From a virus (taxonomy: Duplodnaviria; Heunggongvirae; Uroviricota; Caudoviricetes), in the IMG/VR virus record IMGVR_UViG_2684622619_000026: a stretch of DNA of 25,074 bases; one strand, given 5' to 3'. Position numbers and translations under genes: made by a program. The notes below the pieces were generated by a model that saw only the letters and a list, made by a program, of their open reading frames with translations, was not told the DNA's origin and searched no databases. Of the stretch, positions 3,901-11,575 are shown one piece after another (position 1 is the stretch's first letter; each line of letters opens with the position of its first letter).

Positions 3901-4172
3901 GTATTCGTATTGAAATTGGCGAACGTTATGTCGTTACCAGTGACAGCTTTCAGTTTATTCTCCACGAGAAAAAGAGAGCGGAAAGCGGTAAAAACGCCGG
4001 TCAGGAATGGCTGGCGGTGGTTGGTTATTACCCGAAATTAAGCCAGCTCGTTTCCGGCCTGATGCATCACGATATTCTGACCGGAAGCGCAAAGTCTTTT
4101 GCTGATTTAAACGCGCAGGTTGAGCAACTCAGCAAGCGTTGCTCAGAGGCTTTTGGCTCATATGGCCGTTAA
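3897..4172 (+). CDS. hypothetical early protein (P2 orf83-position)
   Basis: 91-aa ORF, start overlaps the stop of the upstream gene; 3' end overlaps the start of gene A. Confidence 0.55.
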   Translation: MSIRIEIGERYVVTSDSFQFILHEKKRAESGKNAGQEWLAVVGYYPKLSQLVSGLMHHDILTGSAKSFADLNAQVEQLSKRCSEAFGSYGR

Positions 4173-6444
4173 AGCCTCCGGGCGTTTTGTCCCTCCGTCA
4201 GCATTTGCTGCAGGCACCGGTAAGGCGTTTACCGGTGCTTATGCATGGAACGCGCCACGCGAGGCCGTCGGGCGCGAAAGACCCCTTACACGTGACGAGA
4301 TGCGTCAGGTGCAAGGTGTTTTATCCACGATTAACCGCCTGCCTTACTTTTTGCGCTCGCTGTTTACTTCACGCTATGACCACATCCGGCGCAATAAAAG
4401 CCCGGTGCACGGGTTTTATTTCCTCACATCCACTTTTCAGCGTCGTTTATGGCCGCGCATTGAGCGTGTGAATCAGCGCCATGAAATGAACACCGACGCG
4501 TCGTTACTGTTTCTGGCAGAGCGTGACCACTATGCGCGCCTGCCGGGAATGAATGACAAGGAGCTGAAAAAGTTTGCTGCCCGTATCTCATCGCAGCTTT
4601 TCATGATGTATGGGGAACTCAGTGATGCCTGGGTGGATGCGCATGGCGAAAAAGAATCGCTGTTTACGGATGAGGCGCAGGCTCACCTCTATGGTCATGT
4701 TGCTGGCGCTGCACGTGCTTTCAATATTTCCCCTCTCTACTGGAAAATATACCGTAAAGGGCAGATGACCACGAGGCAGGCATATTCTGCCATTGCCCGT
4801 CTGTTTAACGATGAGTGGTGGACTCATCAGCTTAAAGGCCAGCGTATGCGCTGGCATGAAGCGTTACTGATAGCTGTCGGGGAGGTCAATAAAGACCGTT
4901 CTCCTTATGCCAGTAAACACGCCATTCGTGATGTGCGTGCGCGCCGCCAGGCAAATCTGGAATTTCTTAAATCGTGTGACCTTGAAAACAGGGAAACCGG
5001 CGAGCGCATCGACCTTATCAGTAAGGTGATGGGCAGTATTTCTAATCCTGAAATTCGCCGGATGGAGCTGATGAACACCATTGCCGGTATTGAGCGTTAC
5101 GCCGCCGCAGAGGGTGATGTGGGGATGTTTATCACGCTGACCGCGCCGTCAAAGTATCACCCGACACGTCAGGTCAGAAAAGGCGAAAGTAAAACCGTTC
5201 AGCTTAATCACGGCTGGAACGATGAGGCATTTAATCCAAAGGATGCGCAGCGTTATCTCTGCCGCATCTGGAGCCTGATGCGCACGGCATTCAAGGATAA
5301 TGATTTACAGGTCTACGGTTTGCGTGTCGTCGAGCCACACCACGACGGAACGCCGCACTGGCATATGATGCTTTTTTGTAATCCACGCCAGCGTAACCAG
5401 ATTATCGAAATCATGCGTCGCTACGCGCTCAAAGAGGATGGAGACGAAAGAGGAGCTGCGCGAAACCGTTTTCAGGCAAAACACCTTAACCGGGGCGGTG
5501 CTGCGGGATATATCGCGAAATACATTTCAAAAAACATCGACGGCTATGCACTGGATGGTCAGCTCGATAACGATACCGGTAAGCCGCTTAAAGATACTGC
5601 CGCGGCTGTTACCGCATGGGCGTCAACGTGGCGCATTCCGCAATTTAAAACGGTTGGACTGCCGACAATGGGGGCTTACCGTGAACTACGCAAATTGCCT
5701 CGCGGCGTCAGTATTGCTGATGAGTTTGACGAACGCGTCGAGGCTGCTCGCGCTGCCGCAGACAGTGGTGATTTTGCGTTGTATATCAGCGCGCAGGGTG
5801 GGGCAAATGTCCCGCGCGATTGTCAGACTGTCAGGGTCGCCCGTAGCCCGTCGGATGACGTTAACGAGTACGAGGAAGAAGTCGAGAGAGTGGTCGGCAT
5901 TTACGCGCCGCATCTCGGCGCGCGTCATATTCATATCACCAGAACGACGGACTGGCGCATTGTGCCGAAAGTTCCGGTCGTTGAGCCTTTGACTTTAAAA
6001 AGCGGCATCGCCGCGCCTCGGAGTCCTGTCAATAACTGTGGAAAACTCACCGGTGGTGATACTTCGTTACCGGCTCCCACACCGACTGAGCATGCTGCAG
6101 CGGTGTTAAATTTAATAGATGAAGGGATTCTAAGTTGGACCGAGCCAGGCATTATGAAGGTACTTAGAGACTTATTGAGTAATGAACTGAAATGCAGTAA
6201 TCGTTCACAGCAGAGCTTTACCCCTTTCAATGGTCGAAGCTACTTTCCTGCCCCATCCGCCCGGTTGACAAGGCAGGAGAGAAAGACTATCCCGAAAATT
6301 AAGGTTCTTCTTGCACAAAGTGACATTCAGGCTAGTTATTGGGAGCTTGAAGCTCTCGCTCGCGGAGCTGTTTTGGATTTTGGGCATAAGCGTTTTAAAT
6401 TTGATAACGATATCGACTTTTTTGACAGACAGCGTGAGTGGTAG
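4162..6444 (+). CDS. A: rolling-circle replication initiator endonuclease A (HUH family)
   Basis: Start taken at the internal Met (MAVKASGRFVPP) rather than the ORF-track start at 4120; HUH-type motif HHDGTPHWHMMLF and tyrosine motif GYIAKYISKNIDGY; about 760 aa as for P2 gpA. Confidence 0.9.
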   Translation: MAVKASGRFVPPSAFAAGTGKAFTGAYAWNAPREAVGRERPLTRDEMRQVQGVLSTINRLPYFLRSLFTSRYDHIRRNKSPVHGFYFLTSTFQRRLWPRIERVNQRHEMNTDASLLFLAERDHYARLPGMNDKELKKFAARISSQLFMMYGELSDAWVDAHGEKESLFTDEAQAHLYGHVAGAARAFNISPLYWKIYRKGQMTTRQAYSAIARLFNDEWWTHQLKGQRMRWHEALLIAVGEVNKDRSPYASKHAIRDVRARRQANLEFLKSCDLENRETGERIDLISKVMGSISNPEIRRMELMNTIAGIERYAAAEGDVGMFITLTAPSKYHPTRQVRKGESKTVQLNHGWNDEAFNPKDAQRYLCRIWSLMRTAFKDNDLQVYGLRVVEPHHDGTPHWHMMLFCNPRQRNQIIEIMRRYALKEDGDERGAARNRFQAKHLNRGGAAGYIAKYISKNIDGYALDGQLDNDTGKPLKDTAAAVTAWASTWRIPQFKTVGLPTMGAYRELRKLPRGVSIADEFDERVEAARAAADSGDFALYISAQGGANVPRDCQTVRVARSPSDDVNEYEEEVERVVGIYAPHLGARHIHITRTTDWRIVPKVPVVEPLTLKSGIAAPRSPVNNCGKLTGGDTSLPAPTPTEHAAAVLNLIDEGILSWTEPGIMKVLRDLLSNELKCSNRSQQSFTPFNGRSYFPAPSARLTRQERKTIPKIKVLLAQSDIQASYWELEALARGAVLDFGHKRFKFDNDIDFFDRQREW

Positions 6445-6533
6445 TTGAAAAAAACGGTCAAACGGGGTAACAATATGTTATTGTTGAGGAATTGTTTGTT
6501 ATAGTTTAATTTTTATACACGGCAGAAAAGCAT
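6445..6533 (+). promoter_or_regulatory. AT-rich leader of the cargo operon with candidate promoter and a short dyad
   Basis: Sharp drop in GC right after the A stop codon; TTGTTT/TTGTTA and TATACA-like hexamers; imperfect dyad AACAATA-TGT-TATTGTT near 6466-6482. Not verified. Confidence 0.3.
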
Positions 6534-7757
6534 ATGAGCATGGTTGAATGGATAAGCCACGAGAAAAAAGATAGCCTGATACTATTTGTACATGGATTAA
6601 ATGGTGGTTTGGAAACATGGAACTTTAATAAAGAAACTTCATTTCCAAAACTATTAGCAGAAGATGAAGACATTGGCAATGTATTTGATATTGCATGTTT
6701 CAATTATTTCACCAAATTTACACAAACGTATGCTAAAACGTCAGGATTATGGGCTCGTATTTTCTCTAAGAAAAATAAGTTAGAGAGAAATTTACCAACT
6801 GATGAAATAGCTGAGTTATTGTATACTGAGATTAGGGTAACGCTAAGTGATTACTCTCGAATTATAATAATCGCCCATAGTATGGGGGGGGTAATATCAA
6901 AAAATCTAATTCTAAAAAAAGTTGAGCATGAGGAACAATCTAATATAATTGGATTCATTTCGTTAGCAGTCCCTCACTTTGGTGCTAAATTGGCGAATAT
7001 AACTTCAATGGTATCTTCAAATGCTCAGTTAGTAGATCTTGGATTGTTAAGTGAAGCGACCGATACGTTGAATAGGCGCTGGATAAATTGTAGCAAAAAA
7101 CTTCCTATCACTAGATATGTTTATGGTTCTCATGACACTATAGTTGATAAAAAAAGCGCATTACCGATGGATAGTGAACGAAATAACTCAATTGCAGTTA
7201 ATGAAGGGCATAGCTCAATTTGCAAGCCCGAAAACAGCTCGTCTACAGTGTTTGTTGCGGTAAAGCAATTTATTCAGCAGATAAATTTAGAAGCACCCAA
7301 GAAGATATGTGTTGAGCGTTTTTCTGATGAGAAACAATATGATAATGAGTATTTCGTCTTAAAAATGATTGTCGCAGATATACATCAGGATATCGCTATG
7401 CATGCAAAGGAATATTATTATAATGCTGAGCTTGCGAGAAATATTTTTACGAGTGATTACGATAGGAAACTACTTGGTCATTTGTATTCTAAAATAAGGG
7501 AGATTTACCAGGAAGAGTATGAGCAATATATCGCGAATTCAATTTCCCCAGATAAATTTATTGCTGCTGTTCATAGACGAATAGCCCAAGAGGATAAGTC
7601 GTCGTTAGATTCTCTTATAAAAAGTTTAGAAACGATACATAAGAAAGGAATGTTGCATCAACTGGCTAACAAAAATGACAGGGATATTGTCTGGTCATCT
7701 GAAACCAGCGTAGAAACTTTGGAGCAATTACGGCGAGGTAATCATGAAGAAAAATAA
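6534..7757 (+). CDS. alpha/beta-hydrolase (serine esterase/lipase-like) effector candidate with C-terminal helical domain; first gene of cargo cassette
   Basis: 407 aa; LILFVHGLNGG (oxyanion-hole-like HG) and nucleophile elbow IIIAHSMGGV (G-x-S-x-G) in the N-terminal ~230 aa; candidate Asp (GSHDTIVD) and His (NEGHSSI); C-terminal ~170 aa charged and helical; about 33% GC versus >50% for the backbone. Confidence 0.7.
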   Translation: MSMVEWISHEKKDSLILFVHGLNGGLETWNFNKETSFPKLLAEDEDIGNVFDIACFNYFTKFTQTYAKTSGLWARIFSKKNKLERNLPTDEIAELLYTEIRVTLSDYSRIIIIAHSMGGVISKNLILKKVEHEEQSNIIGFISLAVPHFGAKLANITSMVSSNAQLVDLGLLSEATDTLNRRWINCSKKLPITRYVYGSHDTIVDKKSALPMDSERNNSIAVNEGHSSICKPENSSSTVFVAVKQFIQQINLEAPKKICVERFSDEKQYDNEYFVLKMIVADIHQDIAMHAKEYYYNAELARNIFTSDYDRKLLGHLYSKIREIYQEEYEQYIANSISPDKFIAAVHRRIAQEDKSSLDSLIKSLETIHKKGMLHQLANKNDRDIVWSSETSVETLEQLRRGNHEEK

Positions 7758-8256
7758 CTTGCCGTATATTCCTCTTGATGAAGAGTATAGCTTGAATTTT
7801 GCTATGCTTGCCATTGCTATATCTATATTATCTCATAGCAAAAAAGGAGTGTTATCATTAGATATTAATAAAATACAAATTTTTATGTATCTGATAAAAA
7901 ACCCATCAAAAATTGATTATGCTCTTACAGTTTCGGGGAAAAAGCCTGCTTGTGTCGAGTCCCAGTTAACTTATACAATAAAGAGTTTTTCAACAAATGT
8001 AGATATCTTATTCGACAATTCCAAAGTGAAATATCTTATAAAAATTATGTCATTGCGGGGATTGCTCTCAGCTGAGAAAAAAAATAATGAGAGTGTTAAA
8101 TTATTTTTATCTGAAAAAGGTAAGGAATTTGCTAGCTCATTGACTGATGGATATTTTAAAGAAATAAAACGACTATCCGAAGCATTGTTACCGCTACAAG
8201 CATTGCCTACCTCTAAGTTAAACTCTGTTATAAATCAAGTCTTCAAGGAGAAATGA
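7744..8256 (+). CDS. small protein, middle gene of cargo cassette (putative adaptor)
   Basis: 170 aa; GAGG SD 5 nt upstream; start overlaps the upstream stop by 14 nt and its stop overlaps the downstream start (ATGA); no recognisable catalytic motif; AT-rich. Confidence 0.65.
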   Translation: MKKNNLPYIPLDEEYSLNFAMLAIAISILSHSKKGVLSLDINKIQIFMYLIKNPSKIDYALTVSGKKPACVESQLTYTIKSFSTNVDILFDNSKVKYLIKIMSLRGLLSAEKKNNESVKLFLSEKGKEFASSLTDGYFKEIKRLSEALLPLQALPTSKLNSVINQVFKEK

Positions 8257-10223
8257 TGAAATCATATCTCAATATCAATAGTTTGATTCTTGTTGGCGTT
8301 CGTAAAAACTACGTCACTACTTTTTATAAAGGTCTCAATGTTATCTACGGAGACTCTGACACAGGTAAGTCAAGCATTCTGGAGTTTATTAATTATCTTT
8401 TAGGTGCTAGCTCTATAGATTTAGCAGATGAAATAAAAACATCAGTAAACTATGCTGCTCTTGAAGTAGTGATCAATGATACTGTATTCACAATCGTAAG
8501 AGATATCTATGATCATAAAAAAGCAATAGAAGTTTATCGTTGTAAGTTTGATGATTTACATAAACATTTTCCGAAAAAATACGCTCCTAATTATAGCCCA
8601 TTATCAAATGTTGATGGTGTTTTTTCGGAGTTTTTACTTGATAGTCTTAATTTTCCAAAGATTGAAATTAAGGTGTCTCCTTCTAAAGCTCATTCACAGA
8701 TGCGCAGGTTAAGTTTTAGAAATATATATAAATTTGTTTATGTAAGTCAGGATGATATTGGTAGTAAATCTTTCTTGCGATTGGGTGATTGGTCCCGCTA
8801 CGCATTTACGAAAGAAGTTTTTAAATACATGTTCAATGTGTTGGATGAAAGCATCGCCAGACTCCAAGGTGAAATATCTGCAAAAAGTAGTTTAGTAACG
8901 GAATTAAATAGGAAGTATCAGATAATATCTGAATTTCTTCGCGATACAGACTATGAAACGATTGAATCAATTGATGATGAGATTAATAGGATAGATCTTG
9001 TTTTAGAAGAACTTGTTGCAGGTTTGTCTGCTCTCGATAAAAATATGAAAGCGGATTCCATACAGTATACAGAATTGAAAGATGCTCACAATTTTATTTC
9101 GCTTAAATACAAAGAGTGCATATTAAATATTACTGCGCTTGAGGATAAGATTGATAAATATTCGCGGTTAAAAAATGACTATGATAATGATATTGAAAAA
9201 CTCAAAGCGATTAAAACAGCAAATTCTCGCATTGGTGTATTGGATAAGGAAGTATTTTCCTGTCCAGTCTGTGATAGCCACATTAAAATAGATGATTCTG
9301 ATTTTCCATTTGAAATTTCATCAGAAAAAGATCTTAATGAAGAGTTGAATTCACTTAGTCGACGTAGACGAAATATTAATGACATGATCTCAGAAATGTC
9401 ATTTAAATTAAAAAAAGAATCAGGTTATAAAAAGGAATTAGATGAACGACTTGACGAGTTGAGAGAATTGATTGACGAAGAAAGCCAGTCAATGATTACA
9501 CCATTCTTGACTCAGAGAGATTTTTATATTAAAGAGATCTCAAAAAATGAGAAGGTTAGGGAGCAGTTAGTAAAAGATTTGAAGGTTAGAAACCAGCAAG
9601 AGGAACTGCTTGAAAAGTATCAGGTACTGAGAAAAGATATTGAAGCATTAACTGAACGCTTGGAGGCGTTAAAGAAAAACGCACCTAGCATGGAGGGCAT
9701 TTTACAAGGTTTGGGTGATAGATTTAGTCAGTATTTGAAGGGTATTAATATCAAAAACAGAACGGGGATAAAAATCTCTGAAAGCTATTACATTCCTGTT
9801 ATAAGAGAAAAAGAATATTTTAAAATAACATCCGGAGGTTTGAGAACTATTTCTTCTATTGGGTATCTTTTGTCTATTCTTGATTATGCAATAGATCATA
9901 ATGTTAACCATCCTTTACTTTTGATATTTGATACGGTTGGCAAATATTTAGGGAAACAGACCAAGGAAAAATATTCAAAAGAAACTCTTGCATTCGAGGA
10001 TGACCTTGAGGGAATGTCAGATCCGATGAAGTATCAAAATATTTATGAACAACTATTGAATACAGTTCAAAAAGCAGAAAGAAAAAATGTTCCGTGCCAG
10101 ATTATATTAGTTGATAATGATTTGCCTAATTCGTTTTCTACTGGTGAACTTTCGAATATTATCGCTCATTATAGCTCGGTTGGTGAGGACGGTTTGCCTT
10201 TAGGTTTAATTGATGACCTTTAA
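8253..10223 (+). CDS. SMC/Rad50-like ABC ATPase with central CxxC motif; third gene of cargo cassette
   Basis: 656 aa; N-terminal Walker A GDSDTGKSS; long heptad-like charged middle region; CPVC near residue 337 (mid-protein); C-terminal TSGG signature-like motif followed by hydrophobic-D LLLIFDT (Walker B-like) and ILVDND. Start may be the ATG at 8256 (better spacing from AAGGAG). Confidence 0.75.
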   Translation: MMKSYLNINSLILVGVRKNYVTTFYKGLNVIYGDSDTGKSSILEFINYLLGASSIDLADEIKTSVNYAALEVVINDTVFTIVRDIYDHKKAIEVYRCKFDDLHKHFPKKYAPNYSPLSNVDGVFSEFLLDSLNFPKIEIKVSPSKAHSQMRRLSFRNIYKFVYVSQDDIGSKSFLRLGDWSRYAFTKEVFKYMFNVLDESIARLQGEISAKSSLVTELNRKYQIISEFLRDTDYETIESIDDEINRIDLVLEELVAGLSALDKNMKADSIQYTELKDAHNFISLKYKECILNITALEDKIDKYSRLKNDYDNDIEKLKAIKTANSRIGVLDKEVFSCPVCDSHIKIDDSDFPFEISSEKDLNEELNSLSRRRRNINDMISEMSFKLKKESGYKKELDERLDELRELIDEESQSMITPFLTQRDFYIKEISKNEKVREQLVKDLKVRNQQEELLEKYQVLRKDIEALTERLEALKKNAPSMEGILQGLGDRFSQYLKGINIKNRTGIKISESYYIPVIREKEYFKITSGGLRTISSIGYLLSILDYAIDHNVNHPLLLIFDTVGKYLGKQTKEKYSKETLAFEDDLEGMSDPMKYQNIYEQLLNTVQKAERKNVPCQIILVDNDLPNSFSTGELSNIIAHYSSVGEDGLPLGLIDDL

Positions 10224-10352
10224 TACTATACATGCATTTTTTTGAATTAGATTGCATGTGGATAATGAGTCTATTTAGTGAAGGGAGGGATTTGTGAGAC
10301 GAGACTTTCGATAAAAATGCAACCGCATTAAAATCGCCACATGAAGCGGGCG

Positions 10353-10371
10353 GGCGAGGCGGGGAAAGCAC
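10353..10371. other. cos: cos site (19-nt cohesive-end sequence of P2/186-type phages)
   Basis: GGCGAGGCGGGGAAAGCAC matches the P2 cohesive-end sequence as I recall it; located between the cargo locus and portal gene Q, where P2 cos lies. Confidence 0.55.
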
Positions 10372-10512
10372 TGCGCGCTGGCGGTGGTGCTGATTTTATT
10401 TTTTCAGCGTCTGAGCGCGTCGTGATGGCGCTTAGTCTGCCCGTTGAGGCGTTGGTGTGTCTGCGGGGTGTTTTGTGCGGTGGTGAGCGTGTGAGGGCGT
10501 GATGACGGGGTG

Positions 10513-10540: not shown

Positions 10541-11575
10541 TCAGCCGTTGTCAGTGTCCAGTGAGTAGTTTTTAAAGCGGATGACCTCCTGACCGAGCCA
10601 GCCGTTTATCTCGCGGATCCTGTCCTGTAGCGGGATAAGCTCATTGCGGACAAAGACCTTTGCCACTTTCTCAATATCACCCAGCGACCCGACGTTCTCC
10701 GGCTTGCCGCCCATCAACTGAAAGGGGATGCGGTGCGCGTCCAGCAGGTCAGCGGCGCTGGCTTTTTTGATATTAAAAAAATCGTCCTTCGTTGCCACTT
10801 CACTGAGCGGGATAATTTTAATGCCGTCGGCTTTCCCCTGCGGGGCATAGAGAAACAGATTTTTAAAGTTGTTGCGGCCTTTCGACTTGACCATGTTTTC
10901 GCGAAGCATTTCGATATCGTTGCGATCCTGCACGGCATCGGTGACGTACATGATATATCCGGCATGAGCGCCGTTTTCGTAATACTTGCGGCGGAACAGC
11001 GTGGCCGACTCATTCAGCCAGGCAGAATTAAGGGCGCTGAGATATTCCGGCAGGCCGTACAGCTCCTGATTAATATCCGGCTCCAGCAGGTGAAACACGG
11101 AGCCGGGCGCGAAGGCTGTCGGCTCGTTGAAGGACGGCACCCACCAGTAAACATCCTCCTCCACGCCACGGCGGGTATATTTTGCCGGTGAGGTTTCCAG
11201 TCTGATGACCTTACCGGTGGTGCTGTAACGCTTTTCCAGAAACGCATTACCGAACACCAGAAAATCCAGCACAAAGCGGCTGAAATCCTGCTGGGAAAGC
11301 CACGGGTGCGGAATAAACGTTGAAGCCAGAATATTACGTTTGACGTAAATCGGTGAGCTGTGATGTACGGCAGCACGCAGGCTTTTTGCCAGACCGGTAA
11401 AGCTGACCGGTGGCTCATACCATCTGCCGTTACTGATGCACTCGACGTAATCCAGAATGTCACGGCGGTCGAGTACCGGCACCGGTTCACCAAAGGTGAA
11501 TGCCTCCATTTTCGGGGCGCTGGCGGTCATTTTTTTTGCCGCAGGTTGCGGTGTTTTCCCTTTTTTCTTGCTCAT
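10541..11575 (-). CDS. Q: portal protein Q
   Basis: 344 aa; N-terminus MSKKKGKTPQPAAKKMTASAPKMEAFTFGEPVPVLDRRDILDYVECISNGRWYEPP recognised as P2 gpQ-like; ATGA overlap with the upstream P gene. Confidence 0.9.
   Translation of the reverse strand: MSKKKGKTPQPAAKKMTASAPKMEAFTFGEPVPVLDRRDILDYVECISNGRWYEPPVSFTGLAKSLRAAVHHSSPIYVKRNILASTFIPHPWLSQQDFSRFVLDFLVFGNAFLEKRYSTTGKVIRLETSPAKYTRRGVEEDVYWWVPSFNEPTAFAPGSVFHLLEPDINQELYGLPEYLSALNSAWLNESATLFRRKYYENGAHAGYIMYVTDAVQDRNDIEMLRENMVKSKGRNNFKNLFLYAPQGKADGIKIIPLSEVATKDDFFNIKKASAADLLDAHRIPFQLMGGKPENVGSLGDIEKVAKVFVRNELIPLQDRIREINGWLGQEVIRFKNYSLDTDNG

What the first reader, a model, noticed from the sequence alone, without database searches (positions are those of the whole stretch)
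8253..10223. SMC/Rad50-like ATPase with a mid-protein CPVC motif and an unusual Walker B (D-T instead of D-E)
Walker A sits at the N-terminus and signature/Walker-B-like motifs at the C-terminus, separated by ~400 aa of heptad-rich sequence, the split-head arrangement of SMC/Rad50/RecN. The only Cys-x-x-Cys lies almost exactly mid-protein (around 9259-9273), where Rad50 has its zinc hook. The Walker-B-like motif reads LLLIFDT, with Thr where the catalytic Glu is expected, if my motif assignment is right; that would mean a slow or regulatory ATPase.
Basis: partly seen in the sequence, partly recalled or inferred. Interest (0 to 1): 0.6.

Follow-up and report, generated by a model that had tools for sequence, protein, structure and literature searches.

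The report
Lamassu LmuB ATPase in P2 prophage
The gene encodes LmuB, the Rad50-like DNA-sensing ATPase of a three-gene Lamassu anti-phage system carried by a P2-type prophage of E. coli O157:H7; its zinc-hook motif and its altered ATPase motif are real, conserved, and already described for this family.

Summary
ORF 8253-10223 (656 aa) has Walker A at residues 33-40, signature SGG at 527-529, Walker B LLLIFDT at 555-561, and a single CPVC at 337-340. In a confident AlphaFold model the CPVC sits at the apex of an antiparallel coiled coil. The protein is LmuB of a short (type II, "ABC-3C") Lamassu operon: LmuA (lipase-type serine hydrolase plus CTD8), LmuC (MC4) and LmuB. PADLOC matches are full-length (LmuB E = 1.5e-235), and the best fold matches are solved LmuB chains (9uxh, 9hqx, 9hqu, 9nyg). 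CPxC is invariant in 104/104 family representatives down to 20% identity. The residue after the Walker B Asp is T (51) or S (44) and never E. T561 aligns with the Gln of the published deviant Walker B of Salmonella LmuB. Haudiquet et al. (PNAS 2025) already report hhhhD[Q/S/T/E] and CxxC hooks in short Lamassu, and they validated an E. coli lipase-type system. The low-GC cassette lies in the known gpA-gpQ, cos-proximal defence hotspot of P2-like prophages and is 100% identical in E. coli O157:H7 genomes. Verdict: an ordinary, already known system, read correctly.

The parts
6534..7757 (+). lmuA: effector, 407 aa. The N-terminal part is an alpha/beta serine hydrolase of lipase/esterase type (S116 in AHSMG, D201, H226, oxyanion H20-G21). 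The C-terminal part is the ABC-3C CTD8 docking domain (residues ~265-389).
   Evidence: Pfam CTD8 1.7e-35, DUF676 4e-09, PGAP1, LCAT. PADLOC LmuA 3.5e-108. S116/D201/H226/H20/G21 invariant in 51/51 orthologs. Closest solved relatives are putative lipase 7x2p at 6e-10, LPLA2 and PGAP1.
7744..8256 (+). lmuC: middle component, 170 aa. It overlaps the lmuA stop by 14 nt and the lmuB start by 4 nt (ATGA), which suggests translational coupling.
   Evidence: Pfam MC4 5e-27. PADLOC LmuC 1.5e-52. RefSeq name 'ABC-three component system middle component 4'. Coordinates.
8253..10223 (+). lmuB: Rad50/SMC-like coiled-coil ABC ATPase, 656 aa. This is the gene in the finding.
   Evidence: PADLOC LmuB PDLC03862 1.5e-235 over the full profile. 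Foldseek top hits are LmuB chains 9uxh_F 1e-21, 9hqx_B, 9hqu_A, 9nyg_B. Profile against PDB hits 9hqu_A at 2e-11.
8349..8372 (+). Walker A / P-loop GDSDTGKS (residues 33-40, K39)
   Evidence: K39 invariant in 104/104 representatives.
8748..8750 (+). Q166, the probable Q-loop glutamine
   Evidence: Invariant in 115/115 close homologs and present in 69/104 distant representatives. The assignment is inferred from its position.
8847..9230 (+). Ascending coiled-coil arm (residues 199-326, with breaks near 231-236 and 265-269)
   Evidence: DSSP on the AlphaFold model.
9261..9272 (+). CPVC zinc-hook motif (residues 337-340) in the apex loop 327-357
   Evidence: Invariant CPxC in 115/115, 49/49 and 104/104 sequences. 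Aligned to CPMC of 9hqu_A.
9324..9680 (+). Descending coiled-coil arm (residues 358-476, with a break at 415)
   Evidence: DSSP on the AlphaFold model.
9831..9839 (+). ABC signature motif SGG (residues 527-529, in the context ITSGGLRT)
   Evidence: Invariant in the close clade. hhalign anchors it to LSGGE of E. coli SbcC.
9915..9935 (+). Deviant Walker B LLLIFDT (residues 555-561): D560 is followed by T561 where the catalytic Glu is expected
   Evidence: D-T invariant in 115/115. Family-wide, position 561 is T 51, S 44, G 6, N 1, A 1 and never E. Aligned to D-Q of 9hqu_A.
10098..10121 (+). Strand QIILVDND (residues 616-623). N622 lies where canonical Rad50/SbcC has the H-loop histidine; this is inferred.
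   Evidence: Strand 616-621 in the model. N622 in 92/104 representatives. SbcC TIGVISHV falls under QIILVDND in a MAFFT --add alignment, which is weak evidence.
10353..10371 (+). P2 cos cohesive-end sequence GGCGAGGCGGGGAAAGCAC. It marks the cos-proximal hotspot.
   Evidence: Exact match, with 0 matches in 100 shuffles. The query sequence was recalled from memory; the hotspot is described in PMC9122126.
4162..6444 (+). P2-type replication endonuclease gpA, the left border of the hotspot
   Evidence: RefSeq annotation of the identical region in NC_013008.1. ORF.
10541..11575 (-). P2-type portal protein gpQ, the right border of the hotspot
   Evidence: RefSeq annotation. ORF.

Best explanation
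The ORF encodes LmuB, the sensor ATPase of a short (type II, 'ABC-3C') Lamassu anti-phage system with a lipase-type effector. The system is carried as a low-GC accessory cassette (lmuA-lmuC-lmuB, 6534-10223) in the cos-proximal gpA-gpQ defence hotspot of a P2-like prophage of E. coli O157:H7.

Shown here: family membership of all three genes; the fold; the position of the hook at the coiled-coil apex; invariance of CPxC and of D-T; catalytic competence of the LmuA triad; and conserved synteny across phyla.

Inferred from solved and tested relatives (Salmonella LmuACB, V. cholerae DdmABC, Bacillus LmuAB, E. coli Ec-Lipase): two LmuB protomers pair through their coiled coils and a shared zinc site made by the two CPVC motifs. 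LmuC and the CTD8 domain of one LmuA bind near the hook and keep LmuA monomeric and inactive. When phage DNA ends or replication intermediates appear, ATP-bound LmuB heads engage and clamp the DNA, and LmuA is released, oligomerises and becomes active. Here LmuA is a serine hydrolase, presumably attacking membrane lipids, so the infected cell dies before phage are released (abortive infection).

Thr in place of the Walker B Glu, and probably Asn in place of the H-loop His, make ATP hydrolysis very slow. ATP therefore acts as a binding and engagement switch and not as fuel. This suits a one-way alarm.
For: - PADLOC gives full-length matches to LmuA (3.5e-108), LmuC (1.5e-52) and LmuB (1.5e-235).
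- Pfam finds CTD8 and MC4 of ABC-3C systems, and RefSeq uses ABC-3C names.
- The AlphaFold model (pLDDT 85) puts CPVC at the apex.
- The Foldseek top hits are five solved Lamassu LmuB entries.
- The family profile aligns CPiC to CPMC and D-T to D-Q of 9hqu_A.
- CPxC is present in 104/104 representatives, and residue 561 is T or S in 95/104 and never E.
- The LmuA triad is invariant in 51/51, and its solved relatives are lipases.
- The lmuA-lmuC-lmuB order is kept in about 50 loci from Proteobacteria, Bacteroidota and Firmicutes.
- GC is about 32% in the cassette against about 55% in the flanks. An exact cos site lies at 10353-10371, and the hotspot is described in PMC9122126.
- Literature: short-Lamassu Walker B is hhhhD[Q/S/T/E], CxxC hooks occur, and Ec-Lipase defence needs the LmuB Walker A and the lipase His (PMC12663957). 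The zinc hook, ATP binding and head engagement are required, and ATPase is about 1/min (10.1101/2025.03.14.643221). A Zn-hook is seen at the distal tip of BcLmuB (10.1101/2025.06.23.660979).
Against: - No experiment exists on this exact system. I could not show that the published Ec-Lipase system is this one, because the residue numbering differs (K42/H215 against K39/H226).
- Zinc has not been resolved directly in any LmuB cryo-EM map.
- ATPase data exist for D-Q relatives (Salmonella) and for Bacillus and Vibrio LmuB, whose deviant motifs I did not read out. I found none for a D-T protein.
- The lipid substrate of LmuA is inferred only from family resemblance.
- The release-and-oligomerise step has been shown only for Cap4-nuclease effectors.
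- Sequence identity to solved LmuB chains is only 14-16%.
Confidence: 0.9

Rival explanations
1. It is a genuine DNA-repair SbcC/Rad50 exonuclease subunit, as NCBI names many of its homologs.
For: Several homologs are labelled 'exonuclease SbcC' or 'Rad50'. The architecture is the same, with a split ABC head, a coiled coil and a CPxC hook. Rad50 structures are significant fold hits.
Against: No SbcD/Mre11 nuclease gene is adjacent; the partners are ABC-3C CTD8 and MC4 proteins. The same genome has its own sbcCD, with a 1047-aa SbcC carrying canonical LFLDE and an H-loop His. The coiled-coil arms are about 125 aa, against about 400 in SbcC. The Walker B lacks Glu throughout the family. The gene lies in a prophage defence hotspot.
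Confidence: 0.02
2. The D-T Walker B marks a decaying, non-functional ATPase remnant in a prophage, and the CxxC is a chance leftover.
For: Prophage accessory genes often decay. A 522-aa form that ends just before the signature motif represents a large sequence cluster.
Against: D-T-V-G-K-Y-L-G, the Walker A, the signature motif and CPxC are invariant across 115 homologs at 43-100% identity and across three phyla. All three ORFs are intact and overlap as in a coupled operon. The sequence is 100% identical in many O157:H7 genomes. Relatives with deviant Walker B motifs are active in defence.
Confidence: 0.02
3. It belongs to a different SMC-like or ABC-ATPase defence family, such as Wadjet JetC, Gabija GajA, PARIS AriA or Septu PtuA, and not to Lamassu.
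For: Weak PADLOC hits to JetC (6e-4), GajA (6e-4), PtuA (0.013) and AriA (0.06). JetC and AriA structures appear lower in the Foldseek list.
Against: These hits cover only the P-loop or coiled-coil stretches and are more than 200 orders of magnitude weaker than the LmuB hit. There is no hinge domain, no JetA/B/D, no GajB, no AriB and no PtuB nearby. The partners are LmuA and LmuC.
Confidence: 0.01
4. It is a Lamassu LmuB, but the CPVC does not bind zinc between protomers. It could be a redox-sensitive disulfide or a purely structural turn, with dimerisation resting on coiled-coil contacts alone, as in the hook-less V. cholerae LmuB.
For: Zinc density is unresolved in the Salmonella and Bacillus LmuB maps. 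Some functional LmuB proteins lack any CxxC. The apex has the lowest confidence in the model, pLDDT 58-65.
Against: CPxC is invariant in 104/104 family representatives. Two Cys per protomer fit the Rad50 inter-protomer four-Cys zinc site. The hooks of the two protomers are juxtaposed in both solved complexes, and the hook is required for defence in the Salmonella system.
Confidence: 0.05

Closest known systems
E. coli 'Lamassu Ec-Lipase' (short Lamassu, clade H; Haudiquet et al., PNAS 2025, PMC12663957)
   Same: Both come from E. coli, are short three-gene Lamassu systems with a lipase-type LmuA, and have an LmuB with a single Zn-hook CxxC. In Ec-Lipase, defence against lambda-vir requires the LmuB Walker A Lys and the lipase His.
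   Different: Identity with the window's system could not be established. The published mutants are K42A and H215A, whereas the equivalent residues here are K39 and H226. The supplementary sequences are not held, so it is probably a related but distinct member.
Salmonella enterica LmuACB (PDB 9hqu/9hqx; Li et al., bioRxiv 10.1101/2025.03.14.643221)
   Same: It is the best sequence-level PDB relative of LmuB (profile E = 2e-11) and has a similar length (660 against 656 aa). CPMC aligns with CPVC, and the deviant Walker B aligns (D-Q against D-T). Its hook, ATP binding and head engagement are needed for defence, and it is a slow ATPase.
   Different: Identity is about 15-16%. Its effector is a Cap4-type nuclease, not a hydrolase. 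Its Walker B residue is Gln, not Thr, and its LmuC and LmuA-CTD types differ.
Vibrio cholerae DdmABC / Lamassu Vc-Cap4 (PDB 9ny5, 9nyg, 9uxh)
   Same: It has the same short type II architecture (LmuA1-LmuB2-LmuC1) and gives the top Foldseek hit, 9uxh_F at E = 1e-21. It senses DNA ends and has a divergent Walker B.
   Different: Its LmuB has lost the zinc hook. Its effector is a Cap4 nuclease. It is carried on a V. cholerae genomic island, not on a P2 prophage.
Rad50 / SbcC (E. coli SbcCD, Mre11-Rad50)
   Same: It has a split ABC head, an antiparallel coiled coil and a CPxC zinc hook at the apex (SbcC CPLC at residue 506 of 1047). The spacing from signature Ser to Walker B Asp is +31 against +33 here. 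It is the proposed evolutionary ancestor of Lamassu.
   Different: SbcC has the canonical Walker B D-E and an H-loop His, much longer coiled coils and an SbcD/Mre11 nuclease partner, and it works in repair. LmuB has D-T, probably N622, arms of about 125 aa and LmuA/LmuC partners, and it works in defence.

Membership tests
Lamassu (short / type II; ABC-3C) | LmuB: an SMC/Rad50-like ABC ATPase with its head split by an antiparallel coiled coil, about 650 aa | tested here: met
   PADLOC LmuB 1.5e-235 over the full profile. The AlphaFold model shows a head, a 199-476 coiled coil and an apex. The Foldseek top five hits are solved LmuB chains.
Lamassu (short / type II; ABC-3C) | LmuA: an N-terminal effector domain plus a family-specific C-terminal docking domain, encoded next to LmuB | tested here: met
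   Pfam CTD8 of ABC-3C 1.7e-35 plus alpha/beta-hydrolase hits. PADLOC LmuA 3.5e-108. The triad is invariant in 51/51.
Lamassu (short / type II; ABC-3C) | LmuC middle component encoded between lmuA and lmuB | tested here: met
   Pfam MC4 5e-27. PADLOC LmuC 1.5e-52. The gene overlaps both neighbours.
Lamassu (short / type II; ABC-3C) | Conserved three-gene synteny across unrelated genomes | tested here: met
   The lmuA-lmuC-lmuB order and spacing are kept in about 50 loci from three phyla. Only one other locus sits in a P2 hotspot.
Lamassu (short / type II; ABC-3C) | Deviant Walker B hhhhD[Q/S/T/E] (PMC12663957) | tested here: met
   LLLIFDT. D-T in 115/115. Family-wide T 51, S 44, G 6 and no E. 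Aligned to D-Q of 9hqu_A.
Lamassu (short / type II; ABC-3C) | CxxC zinc hook at the coiled-coil apex. This feature is variable in the family, with 0, 1 or 2 copies. | tested here: met
   CPVC at 337-340 in apex loop 327-357. CPxC in 104/104. Zinc binding itself is not testable with these tools.
Lamassu (short / type II; ABC-3C) | Anti-phage or anti-plasmid activity by abortive infection, and an LmuA1-LmuB2-LmuC1 complex | not testable with these tools
   Shown only for relatives. This needs plaque assays and biochemistry.
Rad50 / SbcC DNA-repair ATPases | Canonical Walker B hhhhDE with a catalytic Glu, and an H-loop His | tested here: not met
   There is no hhhhDE in the protein or in the C-terminal 30% of any of the 104 representatives. 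E. coli SbcC in the same genome has LFLDE and ISH.
Rad50 / SbcC DNA-repair ATPases | An adjacent Mre11/SbcD phosphoesterase nuclease partner | tested here: not met
   The neighbours are LmuA, LmuC, gpA and the portal gene. sbcD lies next to the real sbcC elsewhere in the genome.
Rad50 / SbcC DNA-repair ATPases | CxxC zinc hook at the apex of an antiparallel coiled coil | tested here: met
   SbcC has CPLC at residue 506 of 1047.
SMC proper / Wadjet JetC / MukB | A hinge dimerisation domain at the coiled-coil apex, and kleisin/KITE partners | tested here: not met
   The apex is a 31-residue loop with CPVC, not a hinge domain. No JetA/B/D-like genes are present. The PADLOC JetC hit is only 6e-4 and covers coiled-coil stretches only.
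P2-like prophage cos-proximal defence hotspot (Rousset et al. 2022) | An accessory cassette between replication gene A and portal gene Q, next to cos | tested here: met
   gpA at 4162-6444, the cassette at 6534-10223, cos at 10353-10371 and the portal gene at 10541-11575. The GC drop is shown. The hotspot is defined in PMC9122126.

The most novel reading that the evidence does not exclude
The most novel reading not excluded is that this LmuB clade lacks two catalytic residues, not one. It has no Walker B Glu (D-T, invariant), and it appears to have no H-loop His either (N622, Asn in 92/104 representatives). I found no mention of the H-loop in the main text of the two structure papers I searched. 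If both are true, this clade may be an essentially non-hydrolysing ATP-binding latch, unlike the D-Q or D-E relatives that still turn over slowly. Such a latch would couple DNA-end sensing irreversibly to the release of a lipase, an effector class for which no activation structure exists.

A related open point concerns the carrier. It is a cos-cutting P2 prophage that must make linear DNA ends during its own induction, so it needs some way to avoid triggering its own end-sensing alarm.
Probability: 0.2. Interest if true: 0.35.

Novelty: already known. Interest (0 to 1): 0.12.

Why it matters
Little changes for the field. The result adds one more annotated Lamassu (ABC-3C) system, with a lipase-type effector, to the known defence hotspot of P2-like prophages in E. 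coli O157:H7. It has some practical use. It corrects the misleading 'exonuclease SbcC' and 'AAA family ATPase' labels. It also gives a clean, independent count showing that the hook CPxC is universal in this LmuB lineage and that the catalytic Glu is universally absent. Finally, it points to the lipase-type effector and the D-T/N622 active site as the parts of Lamassu that still lack direct biochemical or structural data. For a genome scan it is a useful control case: a reader working from sequence alone recovered the published anatomy of LmuB.

Tried and rejected
- A profile of the C-terminal head lobe alone (A2) was searched against PDB sequences to get residue-level alignments of the Walker B and H-loop with Rad50 or LmuB. 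It gave only a spurious hit.
- hhalign of the C-lobe family alignment against E. coli SbcC aligned only the signature motif with confidence. The global mode was meaningless. MAFFT --add placed the SbcC H-loop strand under QIILVDND but garbled the Walker B. The N622 = H-loop equivalence therefore stays an inference.
I used a PDB profile search instead.
- I could not identify the published Ec-Lipase system. No supplements are held, no strain or accession appears in the main text, and no retrieved full-length close homolog has the Walker A Lys at position 42.
- A literature search for the three RefSeq accessions found nothing.
- A search for insertion scars or flanking repeats around the cassette found only short AT-rich chance matches. 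The promoter and terminator scans were at or near shuffle expectation.
- The cassette has no megablast match in deposited phage genomes.
- The genome-contig loci were found with a pattern containing DTVGKYL. I did not use them as evidence for D-T conservation. The unbiased phmmer representative search served for that.
- Rival family assignments (SbcC/Rad50 repair, Wadjet, Gabija, PARIS, Septu) were rejected on partner genes and E-values.
Full report
**1. What is in the sequence**

The ORF at 8253-10223 (+) is intact and 656 aa long, and it coincides with RefSeq WP_001325828.1. A direct motif scan finds the following:
- Walker A GDSDTGKS at residues 33-40.
- A single C-x-x-C, CPVC, at residues 337-340 (nt 9261-9272), 51% of the way along the protein.
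- The ABC signature SGG at residues 527-529.
- LLLIFDT at residues 555-561.

There is no hhhhDE anywhere. The only other hhhhD is IILVDN at 617-622. With five cysteines, about 0.04 CxxC are expected by chance. The one inaccuracy is the "~400 aa of heptad-rich sequence". The modelled coiled coil covers about 280 aa (199-326 up, 358-476 down), and the rest is the N-terminal head lobe.

**2. What it is**

The gene is the last of three overlapping genes in a block of about 32% GC (6534-10223), set in DNA of about 55% GC. All three genes match Lamassu components at full length in PADLOC:

| Gene | PADLOC E-value | Pfam |
|---|---|---|
| LmuA | 3.5e-108 | ABC-3C C-terminal domain CTD8 (1.7e-35), behind an alpha/beta-hydrolase domain (DUF676, PGAP1, LCAT-like) |
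| LmuC | 1.5e-52 | ABC-3C Middle Component 4 (5e-27) |
| LmuB | 1.5e-235 | only sub-threshold SMC_N and AAA_23 hits |

RefSeq uses the ABC-3C names for the first two genes and calls the third 'AAA family ATPase'.

An AlphaFold2 model of LmuB, built on 57 homologs, is confident (mean pLDDT 85, pTM 0.68). It shows a bipartite head and an antiparallel coiled coil, with a 31-residue apex loop (327-357) that contains CPVC. Foldseek against the PDB ranks solved Lamassu LmuB chains first: 9uxh_F at 1e-21, then 9hqx_B, 9hqu_A, 9nyg_B and 9ux7_A. These come ahead of Rad50, SMC, JetC and MukB. A family profile hits Salmonella LmuB (9hqu_A) at E = 2e-11. It aligns CPiC with CPMC, and lliDtvGk with LILDQPSQ. 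T561 therefore occupies exactly the position of the Gln in the published 'deviant Walker B'. The spacing from the signature Ser to the Walker B Asp is +33, against +31 in E. coli SbcC from the same genome. This confirms the motif assignment.

**3. Conservation**

- In 115 full-length homologs (43-100% identity), C337, P338, C340 and D560-T561-x-G-K are invariant.
- In 49 LmuB genes from genome loci in Proteobacteria, Bacteroidota and Firmicutes, CPxC is invariant. This set was found partly with a DTVGKYL pattern, so it is not used for the Walker B.
- An unbiased phmmer search of 1.84 billion cluster representatives found 1140 relatives at E <= 1e-3. Among 104 full-length representatives down to 20% identity:
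  - CPxC is present in 104/104.
  - The Walker B Asp is present in 103/104.
  - The next residue is T (51), S (44), G (6), N (1) or A (1), and never E.
  - No hhhhDE exists in the C-terminal 30% of any of them.
- Sixty of the 104, mostly the distant ones, carry a second CxxC 13-24 residues downstream, most often 16-18.

**4. Surroundings**

The window is 100% identical to a P2-family prophage next to yegR in E. coli O157:H7 strains such as TW14359. Ninety-six of 5426 complete E. coli genomes hold at least 80% of the region searched (window 6400-10500, the cassette plus short flanks). The cassette lies between the replication endonuclease gpA (4162-6444) and the portal gene gpQ (10541-11575, minus strand). 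An exact P2 cos 19-mer sits at 10353-10371. This is the cos-proximal hotspot of anti-phage systems described by Rousset et al. 2022 (PMC9122126) and revisited in PMC13586616.

The lmuA-lmuC-lmuB arrangement, always with a hydrolase-type LmuA, recurs in about 50 loci across three phyla. Only one other locus (Scandinavium) is in a P2 hotspot, so the cassette moves between contexts. The LmuA nucleophile S116 (AHSMG), D201, H226 and the oxyanion-hole H20-G21 are invariant in 51/51. Its closest solved relatives are a putative lipase (7x2p, 6e-10), group XV phospholipase A2 and GPI inositol-deacylase.

**5. How it most likely works**

The following steps are inferred from relatives, not shown here. 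In the solved Salmonella, Vibrio and Bacillus systems, an LmuB dimer holds LmuC and the C-terminal domain of one LmuA near the hook and sequesters the effector. Binding of a DNA end with ATP-dependent head engagement frees LmuA, which oligomerises and becomes active. The zinc hook, the Walker A Lys and the signature Ser are needed for defence in the Salmonella system. ATP turnover there is about 1/min and depends on DNA. An E. coli lipase-type short Lamassu with a Zn hook ('Ec-Lipase') protects against lambda-vir and needs the LmuB Walker A Lys and the lipase His.

By analogy, the window's system senses phage DNA ends or replication intermediates and unleashes a lipid-directed serine hydrolase that kills the cell. 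Thr at the catalytic-Glu position makes ATP a switch and not a fuel.

**6. Comparison with what is known**

- LmuB as a Rad50 relative with 'CPxCG or similar' hooks and a hydrolysis-impairing Walker B substitution (PMC10586767).
- Short-Lamassu Walker B of the form hhhhD[Q/S/T/E], with 0, 1 or 2 CxxC copies (PMC12663957).
- Structural and genetic evidence for the hook.

Membership in Lamassu is met on every feature that could be tested. Membership in Rad50/SbcC repair ATPases fails on the Walker B, the H-loop and the nuclease partner. Membership in SMC/Wadjet fails on the hinge and the partner genes.

**7. What remains open**

- I could not establish whether Ec-Lipase is this exact system. The numbering differs and the supplements are not held.
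- Zinc has not been seen directly in any LmuB map.
- I found no ATPase measurement for a D-T variant.
- The strand QIILVDND (616-623) seems to put Asn622 (92/104 representatives) where SbcC has its H-loop His. This rests on topology and a weak alignment. The main text of the two structure papers I searched does not mention the H-loop.
- No structure of a hydrolase-type LmuA exists.

**8. Verdict**

Interest is low (0.12). The only modestly novel reading is that this clade is a doubly crippled, non-hydrolysing ATP latch controlling a lipase. I put that at probability about 0.2 and interest about 0.35 if true.

Noticed in passing
window 10353-10371: An exact copy of the P2 cohesive-end (cos) 19-mer GGCGAGGCGGGGAAAGCAC lies 130 nt downstream of the lmuB stop and 170 nt from the portal gene end. 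The defence cassette therefore abuts the packaging site.
   Followed up: yes
window 10098-10121 (LmuB residues 616-623, QIILVDND): The strand where Rad50/SbcC carries the H-loop histidine ends in D-N-D. N622 is Asn in 92/104 family representatives and His in only 4. LmuB may therefore lack both the catalytic Glu and the switch His. I found no mention of the H-loop in the main text of the two Lamassu structure papers I searched.
   Followed up: partly
LmuB relatives P0172-P0267 (below 26% identity), aligned to window 9261-9330: Most distant LmuB representatives (60/104) carry a second CxxC 13-24 residues after the hook CPxC, most often 16-18. That gives four Cys per protomer, which could form an intramolecular zinc site instead of a shared inter-protomer hook. 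The window's protein has only one CxxC.
   Followed up: partly
window 8256-9821 (P0005 = LmuB residues 2-523): A 522-aa form that is 100% identical but stops just before the signature motif, and so lacks the whole C-terminal head lobe, represents a cluster of 1268 database sequences named 'exonuclease SbcC [Escherichia coli]'. It could be a truncated allele or a partial record.
   Followed up: no
window 9954-10040 (LmuB residues ~568-596): Compared with SbcC, LmuB has an insertion of about 29 residues between the Walker B/D-loop region and the next helix. The insertion contains invariant residues (E586, D590-P591, K593-Y594), and its role is unknown.
   Followed up: no
homologs of window 8253-10223 in public databases: Many orthologs are labelled 'exonuclease SbcC', 'double-stranded DNA repair protein Rad50' or just 'AAA family ATPase'. 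The E. coli O157:H7 genome has a separate, canonical sbcDC locus (L064:29770-34112). These labels are misleading.
   Followed up: yes
window 4120-4162: The mechanical ORF list starts gpA at a TTG at 4120, while RefSeq starts the replication endonuclease at 4162. This is a minor start-codon ambiguity.
   Followed up: no
window 6445-6533 and 10224-10352: No convincing sigma-70 promoter or intrinsic terminator flanks the cassette; scan hits are at or near shuffle expectation. No flanking direct or inverted repeats suggest how the cassette was inserted.
   Followed up: partly
window 6534-10223 against the INPHARED phage collection: No deposited phage genome carries this cassette at megablast sensitivity, although it sits in an apparently complete P2-like prophage present in 96 complete E. 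coli genomes.
   Followed up: partly
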